Assembly: GCA_018061645.1 (NCBI GenBank)
Contig: JAGOTT010000001.1
Location: 1,090-65,089 of the forward strand
DNA: 64,000 nucleotides
Direction: 5' to 3'
Source of the DNA: Candidatus Moraniibacteriota bacterium
Lineage (GTDB): Bacteria; Patescibacteriota; Minisyncoccia; Moranbacterales; UBA1568
Positions 8,267-39,149 of the stretch are shown one piece after another. Under the pieces are notes generated by a model that searched no databases, had not been told where the DNA came from, and worked only from the letters and a program-made list of their open reading frames with translations. Position 1 is the first letter of the stretch, and the number at the start of each line of letters is the position of its first letter. The position numbers and the translations under genes are program-made.

Positions 8267-10492
8267 TTGTACTGCGGATTTTTTGATGTTACCATGGAGG
8301 CATTCGCAACACGTATGGATGAGCGGGATGTGACGAAAAATCGTATGGAAAAGCTCCGGGCGGAAATCGATCGCCATCGGGGGCTCTATCACACGAAAGA
8401 TGCTCCGGAGATCTCCGACGAGGCGTATGATTCGCTGTTCCATGAGCTGGTCGAGCTCGAGGCGAAGTACCCGGAATTCGCTTCCAAAACGAGTCCGACC
8501 CTGCGCGTCGGAGGCGAACCGCTCGAAAAGTTCGAAAAGGTCCGGCACGAGATGCGGCAATGGTCTTTCGACGACGTGTTCGATTTCGAAGAATTGAAAT
8601 CATGGGAGGAACGAACCTTGAGATTTCTTGAGAAATCACAAGGATGCAAGATACAAGATACAAGATACAAGAGTGGGATTGAATATGTCTGCGAGCTGAA
8701 GATCGACGGGCTCAAGGTCGTACTGACGTATGAACAAGGCGAGCTTATCCGTGCGGCGACGCGCGGCGATGGTGCTATCGGCGAGGATGTGACGGGGAAT
8801 ATCCGCACTATCCGCAGTATTCCGCTCAGGCTTTCGCAGGCGATCGACCTTATCGCGGTCGGGGAAGTGTGGCTTCCGTCCTCGGAGCTCGAGCGGATCA
8901 ATCGAGAGCGCGAGTCGACGGGTGAATCGCTCTTTGCGAATGTCCGCAACGCGGCAGCCGGCTCCATCCGGCAGCTCGATCCGAAGGTGACGGCGTCACG
9001 GAAGCTCGAGTCGTTCGTGTACGATGTCGACTTTCTCAGGGAACAGGGAACAGGGAACAGGGAACAGGGGGAAGCAGGTGCGAAAATGCCGGAGACGCAG
9101 ATCGAGGAGCTGGAGCTTCTGAAAGAGCTCGGGTTTCAGGTGAATCCGGAATATCGTTTCTGCAGGACGATCGCGGAAGTGGAATCGTACTATGAGGAAT
9201 GGGAGGCGAAACGACATGATCTGCCCTATGCGCTCGACGGTATCGTCATCAAGGTGAACGATCGTACTGCTCAGGAGGTGCTCGGATATACCGCCAAATC
9301 TCCGCGGTTCGGCGTCGCGTACAAGTTTCCGGCGGAAGAAGCGACGACGGTCGTCGAGGACATCTCCATCCAGGTCGGACGGACCGGGGTGCTCACGCCG
9401 GTCGCGCATCTGCGGCCCGTCCGGATCGCCGGGTCGGTCGTTTCGCGTGCGACGCTTCACAATCAGGACGAAATCGACCGTCTCGGGGTTCGTCTCGGCG
9501 ATACGGTCGTCATCCGAAAGGCGGGCGATGTCATTCCGGAGGTGGTAAGCGTCGTTTCGAACCTGCGGACAGGGGAGGAGCGCGAATTCCGTATGCCGAA
9601 GTCATGTCCGGTCTGCGAGGGACCGGTGAAGCGACAAGCGACAAGGGATACGGGAAAAGGAGAGGAGGGCAAGAGATGCGGAAGGGAAAGCGTCGCTTTG
9701 TACTGCGTGAATCCGAACTGTTTCGCGGTGGAGCGGGAGAAGATCATCCATGCGGTCGGGCGGAAAGGGTTCGATATCGAGGGTCTCGGCGAAAAAATCG
9801 TCGAACAGCTCATGGAAGAGGGGCTTGTCTCCGATATCGCCGATATCTTCGAACTGACGGAAGGAGATCTTGTGCCGCTTGAACGGTTCGCGGAGAAGAA
9901 GGCGGGAAATATCATCGAGTCCATTGCGGCGTCAAAACGCGTTCCGTTTCCGAAATTTCTCTTCGCGCTCGGTATCCGGCATATCGGAGAGGAGACGTCC
10001 CGCATCATCACGCAGGGCGTGATGAGCGGAATTCCAAATTCCAAATTCCAAATTCCAAGATCCGGAAACGGAAACCTGGGCATGGTTATCGAGTATTTTC
10101 CGAAGGTGACGGAAGAGGTGTGGATGACGATCGACGGGCTCGGGGAGAAATCGGCAAAGAGTCTTTCGGAGTGGTTCGGCGATGGGAAGCATCTTGCGAT
10201 GCTCGGGAAAATGCGCGATGCGGGCGTGGACATCGTCATCGAAGAGGGAGCGGCTCCGGAGGGCGGCGCGTTTGCGGGCAGGACGTTCGTACTGACCGGG
10301 ACGCTTTCGCGCTTTACACGGGACGAGGCAAAAGATATGATACGGAAGGAAGGCGGACACGTGTCCTCGTCGGTTTCCGCCTCGACGGATTTCGTGGTGG
10401 CAGGTGACGAGGCCGGGAGCAAGCTCGCGAAAGCGCGGGAGCTCGGCGTGCGTGTCCTGAACGAGGAGGAGTTTCTGGGGATGATAGTTTGA
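8267..10492 (+). CDS. ligA: NAD-dependent DNA ligase LigA, with several short in-frame insertions
   Basis: 741 aa. Adenylation motif CELKIDG, OB fold, Zn finger CPVC...CVNPNC, HhH and C-terminal BRCT. Exact start uncertain (8267 or an internal Met). Contains heptamer repeat tracts at 8647-8673, 9039-9066, 9631-9644 and 10031-10058. Confidence 0.9.
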
Positions 10493-10496
10493 ATTT

Positions 10497-10650
10497 CAAA
10501 GTTCAAATGTCAAATGACAAATCAAGCTCAAATGATAAAAATCCAAAAACGCCTCCGCTACCATTCCGAGTGAGTCTGCGAGTCGAGGAATCTTTTTTGG
10601 AATTTCGATTTAGGATTTGATTTGATATTTGAAATTTGAGTTTTGACATT
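10497..10650. repeat. Intergenic AT-rich inverted arrays of 7-mer units (TCAAATG-like, then CATTTGA-like) flanking an R1 repeat copy (10561-10592) and a T-run
   Basis: Left arm ttcaaag ttcaaat gtcaaat gacaaat. Right arm gatttga tttgata tttgaaa tttgagt, its approximate reverse complement. R1 and TTTTTT lie between. Confidence 0.55.
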
Positions 10651-37360: not shown

Positions 37361-37442
37361 GGAACTACAGTTAGTATATATGTAAATTATAACTGTAGTT
37401 CGGTCAAATTGTCAAAATGCAGCTTCAATCGAAAATCTGCGA

Positions 37443-39149
37443 TTACACCACACTTCCGCCGAAGGCGGCGAGGGCTTGGGAGATGAGGGGATTCCCGGGC
37501 TTTTCGTCCGGCTCGGCGACGACGACTGCAACCTTGGTTCTCGCGGAGAGAATGGTATCAAAAGCCTGAACAAGGGTCAATTGTGCCTTCGGTTCGGCGA
37601 GGCGATCCTTGTGGAAGGGAAACCTCACGGCGATCGTTATCTTGTTCCCCTCGGATTTTGCGGGGCGGGCGTTCGTGAGCGCGAGAGTGAGCGACGCGTT
37701 GATTTTTGTCGCTTCGCGGATGATATCGCGCCAGCGGTCTTTCACATCCTCGAAGGAGAAAGTGGCGGGCGTGGTATCTTTGGAATCTTCCTGCGCCGTT
37801 TCGATTGTGGTTTCTTCTGCTTTGTTTGTCACTTCGTCTGACCTCGGGATTCCTCGACTTGCAGACTCACTCGGAATGACAGTCGTGGTATCTTCAGTTT
37901 TTTCCGAATCTTGTTTCTTGTTTCTTGTTTCTTGAACCCCTTGTTTCTTGTCGCTTGTGTCTTGTATCTTTTCTTCCGTTTTTGATTCAGATTTTTTTGG
38001 CTCTGTGGATTTCGGTCCGGCAGTTTTTTCGGGTTCTTGTATCTTGTATCTTGTATCTTGTATCTTATCCATCATCGCTTTCACCGTCGCGATTTCGATC
38101 GGGAGTTCGGGGATGGAGGAATTCTTCAACTGCTCCGCCGCGACCGAGAAGAGCTCGATGATGCGGACGGCTTCGGTCGGGGAGAAGGAAGCGGCGAGCG
38201 CGAGGGTCGATGTGCGCTGCTCGTCGGTGAAGGATTCGAGGTCAGATGTAGCCGCTTTCTTGTCGATTGCGGCGAGGAGGATGACGCGGAGGTAACGGAG
38301 AAGCGAAGGAACGAACGCAGAAAAATTCTCACCGCGGTCGGAGAGTTCGCGGAGGTAGGCGAGCGCCTCGGGGAGGTCGTTCCCGCCGAGGAGTCGGGTG
38401 AACTGTTCGAGTTTCTCATGGCTCGTCACGCCGAGGATCGCCGCCGCATCCTCTTCGGTGATCGGGCTTTCCTGGAGGGTGGCGACCGCCGTGAAGAGCG
38501 ACTCGGCGTCGCGCATGCCGCCTTCGGCCGAGAGCGCGATGAGTCGGAGCGCCTCGGGCTGGATCTTGAGTTTCTCGCTCTTCGCGATCAGCTCCAGTTT
38601 CTCGATGATCTTCGCGACCGGGAAACGCGAAAGGTCGAATCGCTGGCATCGTGAAACGATGGTTTCCGGAACCTTGTGGAGCGCGGTGGTCGCAAGGATG
38701 AAGATCGCATGCGCCGGTGGCTCCTCAAGCGTTTTCAGAAAGGCGTTCCAAGCGCCGGGAGAGAGCATGTGCGCCTCGTCGATGATATAGATGCGGTAGG
38801 GACCGGATGCGGGCGGAGTCGGGACGCCTTCGAGGATTTCTCGCATCTTATCGACCTGGGTGTGGGTCGCGGCGTCGAATTCGATGAGATCCATCGAACG
38901 ACCATTCTGGATGGTCTTACAATTCTCGCATTTTCCGCAAGGCTCGGCGCCCTTGCGATCCTGACAGTTCGCCGCTTTCGCGAGGAGTCGCGCGAGTGTG
39001 GTTTTGCCGGTGCCGCGTGGTCCGGTGAAGAGATAGGCGTGGCTCAGTTTTCCGGTCTTGAGAGCGTTCTCCAGTGTCCGGACGATGTGTTCCTGGCCGA
39101 TGACCTCGGCGAAGGTCGATGGACGGTATGTACGGTAGAAAGCGGGCAT
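37443..39149 (-). CDS. dnaX: DNA polymerase III subunit gamma/tau DnaX with repeat-built low-complexity linker
   Basis: N-terminal AAA+ (LFTGPRGTGKTTLARLLA, CxxC Zn module). The linker contains heptamer tracts (38036-38063 TTGTATCx4; 37910-37936 CTTGTTTx3) and an in-frame R1 copy (37846-37880). Confidence 0.9.
   Translation of the reverse strand: MPAFYRTYRPSTFAEVIGQEHIVRTLENALKTGKLSHAYLFTGPRGTGKTTLARLLAKAANCQDRKGAEPCGKCENCKTIQNGRSMDLIEFDAATHTQVDKMREILEGVPTPPASGPYRIYIIDEAHMLSPGAWNAFLKTLEEPPAHAIFILATTALHKVPETIVSRCQRFDLSRFPVAKIIEKLELIAKSEKLKIQPEALRLIALSAEGGMRDAESLFTAVATLQESPITEEDAAAILGVTSHEKLEQFTRLLGGNDLPEALAYLRELSDRGENFSAFVPSLLRYLRVILLAAIDKKAATSDLESFTDEQRTSTLALAASFSPTEAVRIIELFSVAAEQLKNSSIPELPIEIATVKAMMDKIQDTRYKIQEPEKTAGPKSTEPKKSESKTEEKIQDTSDKKQGVQETRNKKQDSEKTEDTTTVIPSESASRGIPRSDEVTNKAEETTIETAQEDSKDTTPATFSFEDVKDRWRDIIREATKINASLTLALTNARPAKSEGNKITIAVRFPFHKDRLAEPKAQLTLVQAFDTILSARTKVAVVVAEPDEKPGNPLISQALAAFGGSVV

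What the first reader, a model, noticed from the sequence alone, without database searches (positions are those of the whole stretch)
8647..38063. Heptanucleotide tandem repeats inserted in-frame into essential genes (ligA, rnhB, miaA, dnaX), producing a shared KIQDTRYK peptide
Read directly from the sequence. (AAGATAC)x3.7 at 8647-8673 in ligA encodes KIQDTRYK just upstream of the CELKIDG adenylation site. The same unit reverse-complemented, (TTGTATC)x4 at 38036-38063, encodes [11 protein letters not shown] in the dnaX linker. A degenerate copy at 23555-23582 in rnhB encodes KIQDTGYK. Further in-frame tracts are (GGGAACA)x4 at 9039-9066 in ligA and x2 at 23346-23359 in rnhB; (ATTCCAA)x4 at 10031-10058 in ligA; (GCGACAA)x2 at 9631-9644 inside the LigA Zn finger; (TTTGTAA)x3 at 18791-18811 in miaA; and (CTTGTTT)x3 at 37910-37936 in dnaX. 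Every tract keeps the reading frame. Judged from established knowledge of these folds, each falls in a region expected to be a surface loop or linker. The same heptamers also form the intergenic arrays. This resembles the in-frame insertion of Rickettsia palindromic elements into ORFs, but here the invading unit is a 7-bp SSR family. I do not recall this being described for a high-GC genome, and I could not search to confirm that.
Basis: partly seen in the sequence, partly recalled or inferred. Interest (0 to 1): 0.75.

Follow-up and report, generated by a model that had tools for sequence, protein, structure and literature searches.

The report
In-frame 7-bp repeat cassettes in essential genes
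A candidate-phylum (Moranbacteria) bacterium carries short runs of 7-base tandem repeats inside intact essential genes, where they add small water-loving loops to the proteins; the same habit appears across its relatives and in another candidate-phylum lineage, and I found no description of it in the papers I could search.

Summary
Perfect period-7 tandem tracts of 17-34 bp lie in frame in ligA (4 sites), rnhB (2), miaA (1) and dnaX (2-3). Other periods are almost absent: 7 arrays of at least 3 copies for period 7, none for periods 5, 6, 8 or 9. The window is a Candidatus Moranbacteria MAG. Independent assemblies from other samples reproduce the rnhB, ligA and dnaX tracts without any length change; no strain-level comparison covered the miaA tract.

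Against solved homologues and non-Moranbacteria Parcubacteria, every tract lies in a lineage-specific insertion at a loop or linker. Across about 25 Moranbacteria species the same LigA, RnhB and MiaA positions are hot spots. They carry perfect heptamer tracts of different units, drawn from a recurring vocabulary (AAGATAC, AATTTCC/AAATTCC, GGGAACA, AAGCGAC, TTACAAA). GC-rich hairpin elements are inserted in frame at the same spots. AAGATAC tracts also interrupt GyrA, PolA, DnaG, GltX, KsgA, MurD and others in metagenomes, including Berkelbacteria-like CPR.

The shared KIQDTRYK peptide follows automatically from 3x7 = 21 nt.

Best reading: short heptanucleotide SSR cassettes that selection confines to permissive loops, to the hydrophilic orientation and to total lengths divisible by three. 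They are length-stable, then decay or are replaced. How they arise is unresolved. This is a new variant of known kinds (heptanucleotide SSRs, RPE-like in-frame repeats).

The parts
8315..10492 (+). ligA (NAD-dependent DNA ligase), host gene with four tract sites
   Evidence: Exact match to MBP9751240.1. Aligns to E. coli LigA 2OWO over residues 9-723, E = 4e-156.
8638..8672 (+). ligA site 1: (AAGATAC) tract, perfect at 8647-8672, encoding KIQDTRYK. The tract ends 24 nt (8 codons) before the KxDG adenylation lysine codon.
   Evidence: Lies in an 11-residue gap relative to E. coli LigA. This is a hot spot in about 17 Moranbacteria species, with different units.
9037..9069 (+). ligA site 2: (GGGAACA) x4.7, 33 nt, encoding [11 protein letters not shown]
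   Evidence: A 12-residue insertion relative to 2OWO. Hot spot across species.
9629..9645 (+). ligA site 3: (AAGCGAC) x2.4 in the zinc-finger loop after the CPVC pair, encoding KRQATRD
   Evidence: The same unit lies at the same site, in the same phase, in L002, whose LigA is 59% identical.
10030..10058 (+). ligA site 4: (AATTCCA) x4.1 in the HhH region, encoding IPNSKFQIP
   Evidence: AAATTCC or AATTTCC tracts lie at the same site in L001, L004 and L011.
17986..18990 (-). miaA, host gene
   Evidence: Exact match to MBP9751251.1. Homology to solved MiaA structures.
18790..18814 (-). miaA site 1: (TTACAAA) x3.6 in sense, encoding NYKLQITNT, preceded by a perfect 12-bp hairpin
   Evidence: About 20 extra residues relative to 2QGN/3CRM. 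The tract plus flanks is 93-95% nt identical to L170/L171, against 76% gene-wide. It is degenerate in L045, at the same length.
18310..18395 (-). miaA site 2: 86-nt palindromic (hairpin) element in frame, encoding HCEESSTKQSRNSWIATSFDKNQKTRDD
   Evidence: Fold z = -3.4. Homologous peptides in P0135 and P0144. Relatives carry KIQDTRYK or NREQGT tracts at this site instead.
23201..23911 (+). rnhB, host gene
   Evidence: Exact match to MBP9751254.1. Homology to T. maritima RNase HII 3O3G.
23341..23359 (+). rnhB site A: (GGGAACA) x2-2.7, encoding NGEQGT
   Evidence: Lies in a 15-residue gap relative to 3O3G. Coil with pLDDT below 50 in the AF2 model. Relatives have QGTxNREQGT, NFQFPISNFQ, KFQMPN or no tract.
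23555..23589 (+). rnhB site B: degenerate (AAGATAC) x5, encoding KIQDTGYKMQK
   Evidence: Exactly +7 residues relative to 3O3G. Perfect (AAGATAC) x4 at the same length in the 92%-identical relative L045. No indels in 3 other samples.
37443..39149 (-). dnaX, host gene
   Evidence: Exact match to MBP9751272.1. Pfam domains I-III end at residue 360.
38035..38066 (-). dnaX linker: (AAGATAC) x4.6, encoding [11 protein letters not shown], starting 2 residues after domain III
   Evidence: Logan contigs from 3 samples end exactly here (de Bruijn break at a repeat shared with ligA) and show the full tract.
37906..37970 (-). dnaX linker: degenerate heptamer array (AAGATAC AAGACAC AAGCGAC AAGAAAC ... AAGAAAC x3 AAGATTC)
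   Evidence: 99.9-100% identical, without indels, in 3 other samples.
37849..37877 (-). dnaX linker: in-frame copy (IPSESASRGI) of a GC-rich hairpin element
   Evidence: One mismatch to the intergenic copy at 10563-10591; 0 matches expected by chance.
10492..10650 (+). ligA-gatC intergenic element: an A-rich heptamer-periodic arm, a GC-rich terminator-like hairpin (10563-10591) with a T run, then an inverted T-rich heptamer arm
   Evidence: Fold z = -3.3.
13989..14065 (+). nusG-rplK intergenic inverted pair of heptamer arrays (AATAACC ... TTGGTGA) forming a long hairpin
   Evidence: Fold z = -4.4.
18992..19135 (-). dnaE-miaA intergenic 140-nt hairpin with heptamer-periodic arms
   Evidence: Fold z = -9.5.
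22668..22790 (+). dnaE/rnhB intergenic inverted heptamer arrays (CAAATGT ... ATTTGAA/ATTTGGC) around a GC hairpin
   Evidence: Fold z = -5.0.
6488..6521 (+). Intergenic (GAATCAG) x4.9 between the prepilin peptidase gene and a pilin-like gene
   Evidence: The same unit lies just downstream of ligA in L008.

Best explanation
These are short heptanucleotide simple-sequence-repeat cassettes, typically 3-5 units and 24-34 bp. This class of repeat is pervasive in Moranbacteria and is also present in at least one other CPR lineage.

Where they occur. In intergenic DNA they form the inverted, A-rich then T-rich arms of long terminator-like hairpins. Inside genes they survive only where three conditions hold:
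- the protein tolerates extra residues (surface loops, zinc-finger loop, inter-domain linkers);
- the A-rich, stop-free strand is the sense strand, so the product is hydrophilic;
- the net length change is a multiple of three.

Why the peptide is shared. Because 3 x 7 = 21 nt, a tract of three or more units is read in all three frames in turn. It encodes the same heptapeptide whatever frame it enters. This is why ligA, dnaX and rnhB all read KIQDTRY.

Origin (inferred). Tracts arise by duplication in a 7-nt register. This could be polymerase slippage or reiterative synthesis, the explanation proposed for heptanucleotide SSRs in general. Occasional copying of existing tracts may contribute.

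Fate (shown). Once fixed, tracts do not change length between strains. Over longer times they decay by point substitution, are re-homogenised, or are replaced by another cassette or by a GC-rich hairpin element at the same hot spot.

Net effect. Continuous, lineage-specific remodelling of loops and linkers of housekeeping proteins.
For: Period-7 excess:
- Window: 7 arrays of at least 3 copies for period 7, against 0 for periods 5, 6, 8 and 9.
- 293 kb of LigA loci: 31 for period 7, against 1, 1, 0 and 0 for periods 5, 6, 8 and 9.
- 1.1 Mb of all loci: 234 for period 7, against 14, 7, 6 and 2 for periods 5, 6, 8 and 9. Of the period-7 arrays, 139 (counted at 2.5 copies or more) are of the AAGATAC unit, most of them found by the search itself.

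Lineage specificity and hot spots: non-Moranbacteria loci have no tracts or inserts. In Moranbacteria, tracts cluster at about nt 285-415, 680-775, 1260-1360 and 1640-1895 of ligA.

Insertions relative to solved homologues, at loops.

Orientation filter: in-gene units are A-rich in sense. Mean Kyte-Doolittle hydropathy is -1.19 for sense against +0.80 for antisense. Sense is the more hydrophilic strand, or antisense carries a stop, in 42 of 51 tracts. TAA and TAG are depleted in units.

Length stability: no indels in 99.9%-identical contigs from six other Logan samples, nor in a 98.3%-identical JGI contig. Length is also the same at 92% nt identity.

Decay: RnhB site B is perfect in L045 and P0007 and carries independent point changes in the window, P0008 and P0010.

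Replacement: RnhB site A and MiaA sites 1 and 2 carry different units or hairpin elements in relatives that are 78-90% identical.

Hint of homogenisation: L171 MiaA site 2 is (GAGATAC) x3 where L170 has (AAGATAC) x4.4. The same A-to-G change recurs at period 7, across different codon positions.

Length cap: 17-34 bp (maximum 39) in the unbiased set.

Literature: heptanucleotides are the commonest long SSR class in many bacteria, and a 7-nt polymerase footprint has been proposed (Mrazek 2007, as summarised in PMC4679880). A preference for about 4 units is reported in Xanthomonas and Nostoc (PMC4692102). Geobacter has 4 x heptanucleotide elements both inside and between genes (PMC2700814).
Against: Single-unit slippage cannot operate inside an essential gene, because +/-7 nt shifts the frame. 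Growth to 4-5 units would need 21-nt steps or compensated steps, which I did not observe.

No copy-number polymorphism was seen at all, which is unusual for an SSR.

The same few units recur at different hot spots, in different proteins and in species with 34-60% G+C. L004 site 4 and L020 site 2 share a 26-nt tract plus 10 nt of 3' flank. Purely local slippage does not predict this.

The MiaA site 1 tract and its flanks are the most conserved nucleotides of the gene between genomes that are 76% identical. AAGCGAC and AATTCCA-type tracts persist, perfect, at the same LigA sites at 59-61% protein identity. This suggests selection, homogenisation or re-acquisition rather than neutral decay.

The tracts are AT-rich in a 55-60% G+C genome.
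Confidence: 0.55

Rival explanations
1. The tracts are mobile or copy-paste cassettes. Pre-formed units of defined sequence (AAGATAC, AATTTCC, GGGAACA, AAGCGAC, TTACAAA and others), sometimes with adjoining sequence and GC-rich hairpins, would be inserted into DNA by a dedicated or semi-dedicated mechanism. Candidates are REP/RAYT- or IS200-like single-strand transposition, template switching to existing arrays, or a reverse-transcriptase or primase-polymerase adding repeats at breaks. The hot spots would then reflect both target preference and selection.
For: - A vocabulary shared across species, proteins and CPR classes, independent of genome G+C.
- An identical tract plus 10-nt flank at two different LigA sites in two species.
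- Whole-tract replacement between proteins 84-90% identical, without length drift.
- Hairpin elements of one family inserted on both sides of the miaA tract in L045, and in the dnaX linker next to tracts.
- The MiaA site 1 cassette is 93-95% identical between genomes whose miaA genes are otherwise 76% identical.
- Tracts of different units abut each other, for example [18 protein letters not shown] and KIQDTSDKLQITNYKL.
Against: - No conserved termini, target-site duplications or flank motifs were found around 112 AAGATAC tracts.
- No transposase or reverse-transcriptase candidate was identified.
- 107 distinct units were seen among 310 arrays. That diversity is hard to reconcile with a few templated cassettes.
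- Recombination between related genomes is evident: L170 and L171 are identical over the first 300 nt or so of miaA and then about 75% identical. This could explain the local nucleotide conservation.
- The recurrent units could reflect mutational and selective convergence (A-rich, stop-free, CAA-containing).
Confidence: 0.2
2. The heptamer tracts are functional nucleic-acid elements: arrays of binding sites read in a 7-nt register by a single-strand-binding protein such as a cold-shock-domain protein, or by another factor. They would be used in terminator and UTR hairpins and tolerated, or exploited, within mRNAs. On this reading they are conserved by selection on DNA or RNA rather than on the peptide.
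For: - Nucleotide-level conservation of the MiaA site 1 tract exceeds the rest of the gene.
- Perfect tracts persist at orthologous LigA sites at about 60% protein identity.
- Units share a CAA core, enriched 1.8-fold.
- In-gene tracts are unstructured single strands, z about 0 to +1.
- CspB binds heptamer direct repeats, one protein per heptamer (as cited in PMC4679880).
- A CSD protein is encoded in the window at 35803-36000.
- Intergenic arrays have a fixed architecture around terminator-like hairpins.
Against: - Tracts at a given site are freely replaced by unrelated units, by hairpin elements or by nothing in close relatives.
- Many tracts simply decay.
- Unit sequences are very diverse.
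- There is no positional rule within genes other than protein tolerance.
- Nothing here tests binding.
Confidence: 0.1
3. The tracts are contingency (phase-variation) loci. Slippage by one unit would switch the genes off and on or create variant proteins.
For: They are non-triplet SSRs inside ORFs, the classical architecture of phase-variable genes.
Against: - The host genes are single-copy essential housekeeping genes.
- No length variation was seen in seven independent assemblies from other samples (99.9-100% identity in six Logan contigs; identical LigA protein in the JGI contig L049), nor at 92% identity.
- Tract lengths of 3-5 units are below those of known hypermutable SSRs.
Confidence: 0.02
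4. Nothing special: ancestral low-complexity protein segments, chance repeats or assembly artefacts.
For: The loops concerned are variable in many bacteria, and the DnaX linkers are naturally low-complexity.
Against: - The period-7 excess is specific and large.
- The tracts are perfect at the DNA level.
- Independent assemblies agree.
- Outgroups and solved homologues lack the segments.
Confidence: 0.02

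Closest known systems
Long heptanucleotide simple sequence repeats of bacteria. 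This covers LSSRs (Mrazek et al. 2007), cyanobacterial STRR heptamers, Xanthomonas/Nostoc GGGNATC repeats (PMC4692102), Geobacter metallireducens 4 x heptanucleotide elements (PMC2700814) and Beggiatoaceae TAACTGA repeats (PMC4679880).
   Same: - Head-to-tail 7-nt units.
- A strong excess of period 7 over neighbouring periods.
- Short arrays (2-6 units, with a mode near 4).
- Scattered genome-wide, many of them next to gene ends.
- Geobacter elements are also found within genes.
- The origin is unexplained; polymerase slippage with a 7-nt footprint has been proposed.
   Different: - Here a large share of the perfect tracts lie in frame inside conserved essential genes, at recurrent loop hot spots. 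In the published cases coding regions are under-represented, and non-triplet units are said to be avoided in ORFs.
- Many different A-rich units are used rather than one dominant unit.
- The units cannot form G-quadruplexes.
- Intergenic copies form inverted pairs around terminator-like hairpins.
- The host lineage is CPR/Patescibacteria, for which I found no report.
Rickettsia palindromic elements (RPEs) and other MITE-like repeats inserted in frame into ORFs
   Same: - A repeat family that is also present in intergenic DNA is found in frame inside housekeeping genes.
- It sits at positions compatible with protein fold and function.
- It is lineage-specific.
- The GC-rich hairpin elements in miaA (18310-18395) and dnaX (37849-37877), and those in relatives, behave like RPEs.
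   Different: - The heptamer tracts are not palindromic and do not fold.
- They are 5-10 times shorter than RPEs.
- They are tandem repeats of variable unit sequence rather than copies of one consensus element.
- No evidence for transposition was obtained.
Borg tandem repeats (aaTRs) creating intrinsically disordered regions (PMC9879509)
   Same: Perfect, apparently young tandem nucleotide repeats inside ORFs. They arise independently at homologous places and add hydrophilic or disordered peptide segments. They also occur intergenically.
   Different: - In-ORF Borg units are multiples of 3 nt and often have many copies. Here the unit is 7 nt, so the amino-acid period comes from the 21-nt super-period.
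- Tracts here are capped at about 5 units.
- The hosts are chromosomal essential genes of bacteria, not genes of extrachromosomal elements.
Phase-variable contingency loci (non-triplet SSRs in ORFs of Haemophilus, Neisseria and others)
   Same: Non-triplet SSRs located within reading frames.
   Different: - No length polymorphism.
- Essential genes rather than surface or virulence genes.
- Short tracts.
- Mid-gene positions in loops rather than near the 5' end.
Ohno's oligomeric-repeat coding idea: repeats whose unit length is not a multiple of three encode the same periodic peptide in all frames (from my own knowledge, not checked here)
   Same: It explains why one heptamer gives one heptapeptide (KIQDTRY, NREQGTG, ISNFQFP, YKLQITN) irrespective of the frame of entry.
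   Different: Ohno's proposal concerned the origin of primordial genes, not insertion into modern essential genes.

Membership tests
Bacterial heptanucleotide SSRs (LSSR / STRR-like) | Head-to-tail tandem copies of a 7-nt unit | tested here: met
   TRF and an exact-repeat scan.
Bacterial heptanucleotide SSRs (LSSR / STRR-like) | Period 7 over-represented relative to neighbouring periods and to chance | tested here: met
   shuffle expectations.
Bacterial heptanucleotide SSRs (LSSR / STRR-like) | Copy number varies between strains, as expected for slippage-prone SSRs | tested here: not met
   No indel in any tract in L042-44, L049 or L172-174 (98-100% identity). Lengths are the same in L045 at 92% identity. 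Only a few strains were available, and no read-level data.
Bacterial heptanucleotide SSRs (LSSR / STRR-like) | Predominantly intergenic; non-triplet units avoided in ORFs | tested here: not met
   8 of the 9 perfect tracts of at least 2.4 copies in the window lie in ORFs. More than 45 tracts lie inside LigA genes of relatives.
RPE-like in-frame palindromic repeats | The element is palindromic or hairpin-forming | tested here: not met
   For the heptamer tracts, fold z-scores are +0.2 to +1.0. The feature is met only by the separate GC-rich elements: the miaA element (18310-18395, z = -3.4) and the dnaX copy (37849-37877), which is a near-exact copy of the intergenic hairpin element at 10563-10591.
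RPE-like in-frame palindromic repeats | Inserted in frame in conserved genes at structurally permissive positions | tested here: met
RPE-like in-frame palindromic repeats | Many copies of one consensus element across the genome, including intergenic copies | tested here: inconclusive
   Units recur (AAGATAC at 3 loci, GGGAACA at 2, hairpin at 2). Only 64 kb of the genome was available, and the intergenic arrays use other units.
MITE / transposable element | Terminal inverted repeats, target-site duplication, or a partner transposase | tested here: not met
   No conserved flank or terminus around 112 AAGATAC tracts. No transposase was examined, so a partner enzyme remains untested.
Contingency (phase-variable) loci | Length polymorphism that switches the frame; located in surface or adaptive genes | tested here: not met
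   The hosts are ligA, rnhB, miaA and dnaX.
Borg-type aaTRs | In-ORF repeat unit divisible by three | tested here: not met
   The unit is 7 nt. Only the 21-nt super-period is divisible by three.

The most novel reading that the evidence does not exclude
The heptamer cassettes are not passive slippage products. On this reading they are generated or propagated by a register-specific mechanism conserved across CPR bacteria, or they are protein-bound nucleic-acid elements kept by selection even inside ORFs. Either way, CPR genomes would possess a dedicated engine that repeatedly writes a small vocabulary of 7-nt repeats into terminators and into the loops of essential proteins, driving lineage-specific loop and linker innovation.
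Probability: 0.2. Interest if true: 0.85.

Novelty: new variant of a known kind. Interest (0 to 1): 0.66.

Why it matters
Textbook expectation, and published surveys, hold that SSRs with non-triplet units are purged from coding sequence, above all from essential genes. Here they are tolerated inside DNA ligase, 24 nt before the adenylation lysine codon and within its zinc finger. They are also tolerated in RNase HII, MiaA and DnaX. In metagenomes they occur in GyrA, Pol I, primase, GltX, KsgA, MurD, MnmA and the CCA-adding enzyme.

If this is general for CPR/Patescibacteria, four things follow:
- It explains part of the puzzling length and low-complexity variation of CPR housekeeping proteins.
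- It gives a concrete, datable process for how new surface loops and linkers are born and then decay into unique sequence.
- It warns that such tracts break short-read assemblies (Logan contigs end exactly at them) and disturb alignments used for phylogeny.
- It makes the old question of why bacteria favour 7-nt repeats testable in a lineage where the tracts are abundant and under a visible selective filter.

Tried and rejected
- AF2 model of RnhB from a 21-sequence alignment. It was unusable (pLDDT 49). It was repeated with 117 sequences (pLDDT 77).
- Rfam and tRNA scans of the window. Only tRNA-Gln was found. Nothing explains the intergenic hairpins or the 22790-23190 region.
- Boundary and register analysis of 112 AAGATAC tracts, looking for fixed termini. 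The start and end phases are non-uniform. However, the 21-nt search pattern itself selects the register for short tracts, so I do not use this result. Flank positions show only A-richness.
- Strain-level copy-number variation. The 90% clusters of LigA, RnhB, MiaA and DnaX hold no variants. The available contigs show none.
- L045, a JGI contig, has many 1-nt indels in dnaE. These are probably sequencing errors, so small indels from it were ignored and only large differences used.
- Literature. Elhai 2008 (cyanobacterial small dispersed repeats) and Mrazek 2007 are not held. Searches combining Moranbacteria, Parcubacteria, Patescibacteria or CPR with tandem repeat, heptamer or heptanucleotide found nothing relevant.
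- The idea that the KIQDTRYK coincidence reflects selection for a peptide motif. I rejected it in favour of the 7 x 3 arithmetic plus a shared DNA unit.
- A G-quadruplex explanation for the preference for about 4 units, as in Xanthomonas. I rejected it because these units lack G runs.

Full report
**1. The observation.**

- ligA: AAGATAC x3.7 (8647-8672), GGGAACA x4.7 (9037-9069), AAGCGAC x2.4 (9629-9645), AATTCCA x4.1 (10030-10058).
- miaA: TTACAAA (sense) x3.6 (18790-18814).
- rnhB: GGGAACA x2 (23346-23359) and a degenerate AAGATAC x5 (23555-23589).
- dnaX: AAGAAAC-type degenerate array (37909-37970) and AAGATAC x4.6 (38035-38066).

The translations are as claimed: [35 protein letters not shown] and LKIQDTGYKMQK.

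Period 7 is singular. There are 7 perfect arrays of at least 3 copies for period 7, against none for periods 5, 6, 8 or 9 in 64 kb. The two most repeated units occur 12 and 4 times, against 0.18 and 0.33 expected.

**2. Source and reality of the sequence.**

The four proteins are exact matches to a Candidatus Moranbacteria MAG (MBP9751240, MBP9751251, MBP9751254, MBP9751272). The LigA relatives are Moranbacteria. The window is about 55% G+C.

Independent assemblies reproduce the tracts.
- Three Logan contigs cover 22757-26459 at 99.9% identity with no gaps.
- A JGI contig (L049) has an identical LigA protein, with 2 synonymous differences and no indel between 7453 and 11006.
- Three further Logan contigs cover 34523-38066 at 99.9-100% identity with no gaps. 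They end exactly in the dnaX AAGATAC tract, as expected for a de Bruijn break at a 32-nt repeat shared with ligA.

No strain-level contig covers the miaA tract; it is seen only in the diverged relatives L045, L170 and L171.

**3. The tracts are insertions at loops.**

- Against E. coli LigA (2OWO), the window protein has +11 residues ending 8 residues before the KxDG lysine, +12 residues after YDVDFL, and +14 residues in the zinc-finger loop after the CPVC pair.
- Against T. maritima RNase HII, it has +15 residues at site A and exactly +7 residues at site B.
- Against solved MiaA structures, it has about +20 and about +19 residues.
- An AF2 model of RnhB (pLDDT 77) puts site A in a coil with pLDDT below 50, between strand 35-42 and helix 55-65. 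Site B lies at the end of helix 103-121, with reduced confidence.
- The DnaX tracts start two residues after Pfam domain III.
- Three non-Moranbacteria Parcubacteria LigA sequences have none of the inserts. Fourteen of the 15 non-Moranbacteria loci have no period-7 tracts; the exception is L034, a Patescibacteria-group MAG with two CAACCAA tracts.

**4. A lineage-wide hot-spot phenomenon.**

In about 25 Moranbacteria LigA genes, perfect heptamer tracts cluster at the same four places: nt 285-415, 680-775, 1260-1360 and 1640-1895. The units differ between species.

Some units recur across species and sites.
- AAATTCC and AATTTCC together account for 10 of 71 tracts.
- AAGCGAC lies at LigA site 3 in both the window and L002, and at site 1 in L003.
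- GGGAACA, GAATCAG, AATACCC and AACCAAT also recur.
- L004 site 4 and L020 site 2 share a 26-nt tract plus 10 nt of flank.

RnhB and MiaA homologues show the same behaviour.
- RnhB site A reads QGTxNREQGT, NFQFPISNFQ (often degenerate), KFQMPN, or has no tract.
- RnhB site B reads KIQDTRYK only in the five closest relatives.
- MiaA site 1 reads [33 protein letters not shown]-hairpin peptides, or nothing.
- MiaA site 2 reads [19 protein letters not shown], or an 86-nt palindromic element, as in the window.

**5. Beyond Moranbacteria.**

The contigs range from 27 to 65% G+C, and the tracts are mostly 3.3-5.3 units.

At least 20 tracts lie in sense inside ORFs longer than 200 aa. The host proteins, as I read them from the translations, include CCA-adding enzyme, GltX, KsgA, an intein-bearing DnaG, TsaE, MurD, GyrA, MiaA, MnmA and Pol I. 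The relatives of the MurD example are Patescibacteria/Berkelbacteria, and their MurD N-domain shows the same hot-spot behaviour.

**6. Dynamics.**

- Tract length does not change among strains (section 2), nor at 92% nt identity.
- RnhB site B is perfect in L045 and carries point changes, mostly A to G, in the window, P0008 and P0010. This pattern indicates decay.
- The miaA tract is perfect in the window and degenerate in L045. In L045, hairpin elements of 75 and 42 bp have been inserted in frame on both sides of it.
- The miaA site 1 tract with its flanks is 93-95% nt identical between the window and L170/L171, against 76% for the whole gene.
- L171 site 2 is (GAGATAC)x3 where L170 has (AAGATAC)x4.4. 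The same A-to-G change recurs at period 7, across different codon positions. This hints at homogenisation.
- Recombination between related genomes is evident and may contribute. L170 and L171 are identical over the first 300 nt or so of miaA and then about 75% identical. The JGI contig is 98%, 92% and 82-88% identical to the window in different segments.

**7. Intergenic counterparts.**

Four intergenic regions are long hairpins whose arms are inverted heptamer-periodic arrays, A-rich then T-rich, around a GC-rich terminator-like stem. Their fold z-scores are -3.3, -5.0, -9.5 and -4.4.

The central hairpin of the ligA-gatC element (10563-10591) recurs with one mismatch, in frame, in the dnaX linker. 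In-gene tracts themselves are unstructured.

**8. Why the peptides coincide.**

A 7-nt unit read over 21 nt visits all three frames. Unit and orientation therefore fix the heptapeptide: AAGATAC gives KIQDTRY, GGGAACA gives GNREQGT, AATTTCC gives NFQFPIS, and TTACAAA gives LQITNYK.

Orientation is filtered. Sense strands are A-rich (156 A against 73 T). Sense peptides have a mean Kyte-Doolittle hydropathy of -1.19, against +0.80 for antisense. Sense is the better strand in 42 of 51 tracts. TAA and TAG are depleted in units, and CAA is enriched 1.8-fold.

**9. Mechanism.**

I favour, at 0.55, short heptanucleotide SSR cassettes generated in a 7-nt register and passed through a strong protein-level filter on site, orientation and net length. 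After that they are frozen, then decay, are homogenised or are replaced.

What is shown: the existence of the tracts, the filter signatures, length stability, decay and replacement. What is inferred: the generating step.

Against pure local slippage stand the shared vocabulary across G+C contexts, the shared flank, the local nucleotide conservation and the impossibility of single-unit steps in essential genes. For these reasons I keep two rivals alive: a copy-paste or mobile cassette (0.2) and a functional protein-bound element (0.1). Published background gives CspB binding heptamer repeats, and the window encodes a CSD protein. Phase variation and artefact are effectively excluded.

**10. Comparison and novelty.**

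Heptanucleotide SSR excess, a mode of about 4 units, and occasional intragenic copies are already known in other phyla. In-frame repeat insertion is known from Rickettsia RPEs. In-ORF perfect repeats are known from Borgs.

Several features were not found in the literature I could search:
- non-triplet tandem tracts systematically occupying loop hot spots of essential genes;
- this occurring across CPR lineages;
- a recurrent unit vocabulary;
- co-located hairpin elements.

I rate this a new variant of known kinds, with interest 0.66.

Noticed in passing
window 37849-37877 (-) and 10563-10591 (+): A GC-rich hairpin (ATTCCGAGTGAGTCTGCGAGTCGAGGAAT) acts as the core of a terminator-like element after ligA. 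It recurs with one mismatch, in frame, in the dnaX linker (peptide IPSESASRGI). The same family lies in frame in miaA of the relative L045.
   Followed up: partly
window 18310-18395 (-): An 86-nt palindromic element (GTCATTGCGAG...CTCGCGATGAC, fold z = -3.4) is inserted in frame in miaA. Near-identical peptides occur in the MiaA of two other Moranbacteria (P0135, P0144). Many relatives carry other hairpin-derived peptides (CHPELVEGS, SSTRRLxRND) at the two MiaA hot spots.
   Followed up: partly
window 10492-10650, 13978-14070, 18992-19135, 22668-22790: These intergenic regions are long hairpins (up to about 140 nt, z down to -9.5). Their arms are inverted heptamer-periodic arrays around a GC-rich stem followed by a T run. 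They may be bidirectional terminators or RNase III substrates. There is no Rfam match.
   Followed up: partly
window 23930-24763 (+): A class IV aminotransferase gene directly after rnhB is present in the window and in the 99.9%-identical Logan contigs. It is absent at this position in the close relatives L045, L046 and L047. This is a recent gene gain or loss.
   Followed up: partly
L045 and L049 (JGI Ga0558720_00153) compared with the window; L170 compared with L171: Mosaic divergence. The same JGI contig is 98% identical to window 6956-14006, about 92% identical elsewhere, and 79-88% identical around miaA, rnhB, gatB and smc. L170 and L171 are identical over the first 300 nt or so of miaA and then about 75% identical. 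This suggests frequent recombination between related Moranbacteria.
   Followed up: partly
L045 5450-8900: The dnaE gene of the JGI relative is split into six or more ORFs by about 20 single-base insertions relative to the window. These are most likely long-read indel errors rather than a pseudogene.
   Followed up: no
window 35803-36000 (-): A 65-aa cold-shock-domain protein is encoded here. CSD proteins are reported to bind heptamer direct repeats with one protein per heptamer, which bears on one rival explanation.
   Followed up: no
window 37992-37998 (-): There is an A7 run (CCAAAAAAATC) in the dnaX linker, just downstream of domain III and the AAGATAC tract. This is the place where other bacteria make the gamma subunit by frameshifting or transcriptional slippage. 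No nearby stop codon was seen in the alternative frame I read.
   Followed up: no
window 22790-23190: About 400 nt between dnaE and rnhB carry only a 73-aa hypothetical ORF call on the minus strand and have no Rfam hit. L045 carries a 498-bp insertion here.
   Followed up: no
window 54683-54720: Four imperfect copies of a 9-mer (CTTTATAAA) lie just upstream of the ATG at about 54729 of a large ORF. This may be a promoter or operator repeat.
   Followed up: no
Starts of L043/L044 (window 22757) and of L172-L174 (window 38064-38066): Short-read (Logan) contigs end exactly at heptamer tracts shared between loci. These repeats therefore fragment assemblies of such genomes.
   Followed up: yes
L061 2287-5241 (-): A metagenomic DnaG primase carries both an intein-like insertion and an in-frame AAGATAC tract ([12 protein letters not shown]).
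   Followed up: no
window 39200-64000: The last 25 kb of the window contain almost no period-7 tracts; all perfect tracts of at least 2.4 copies lie in 6-39 kb. The reason is unknown: chance, gene content or regional origin.
   Followed up: no
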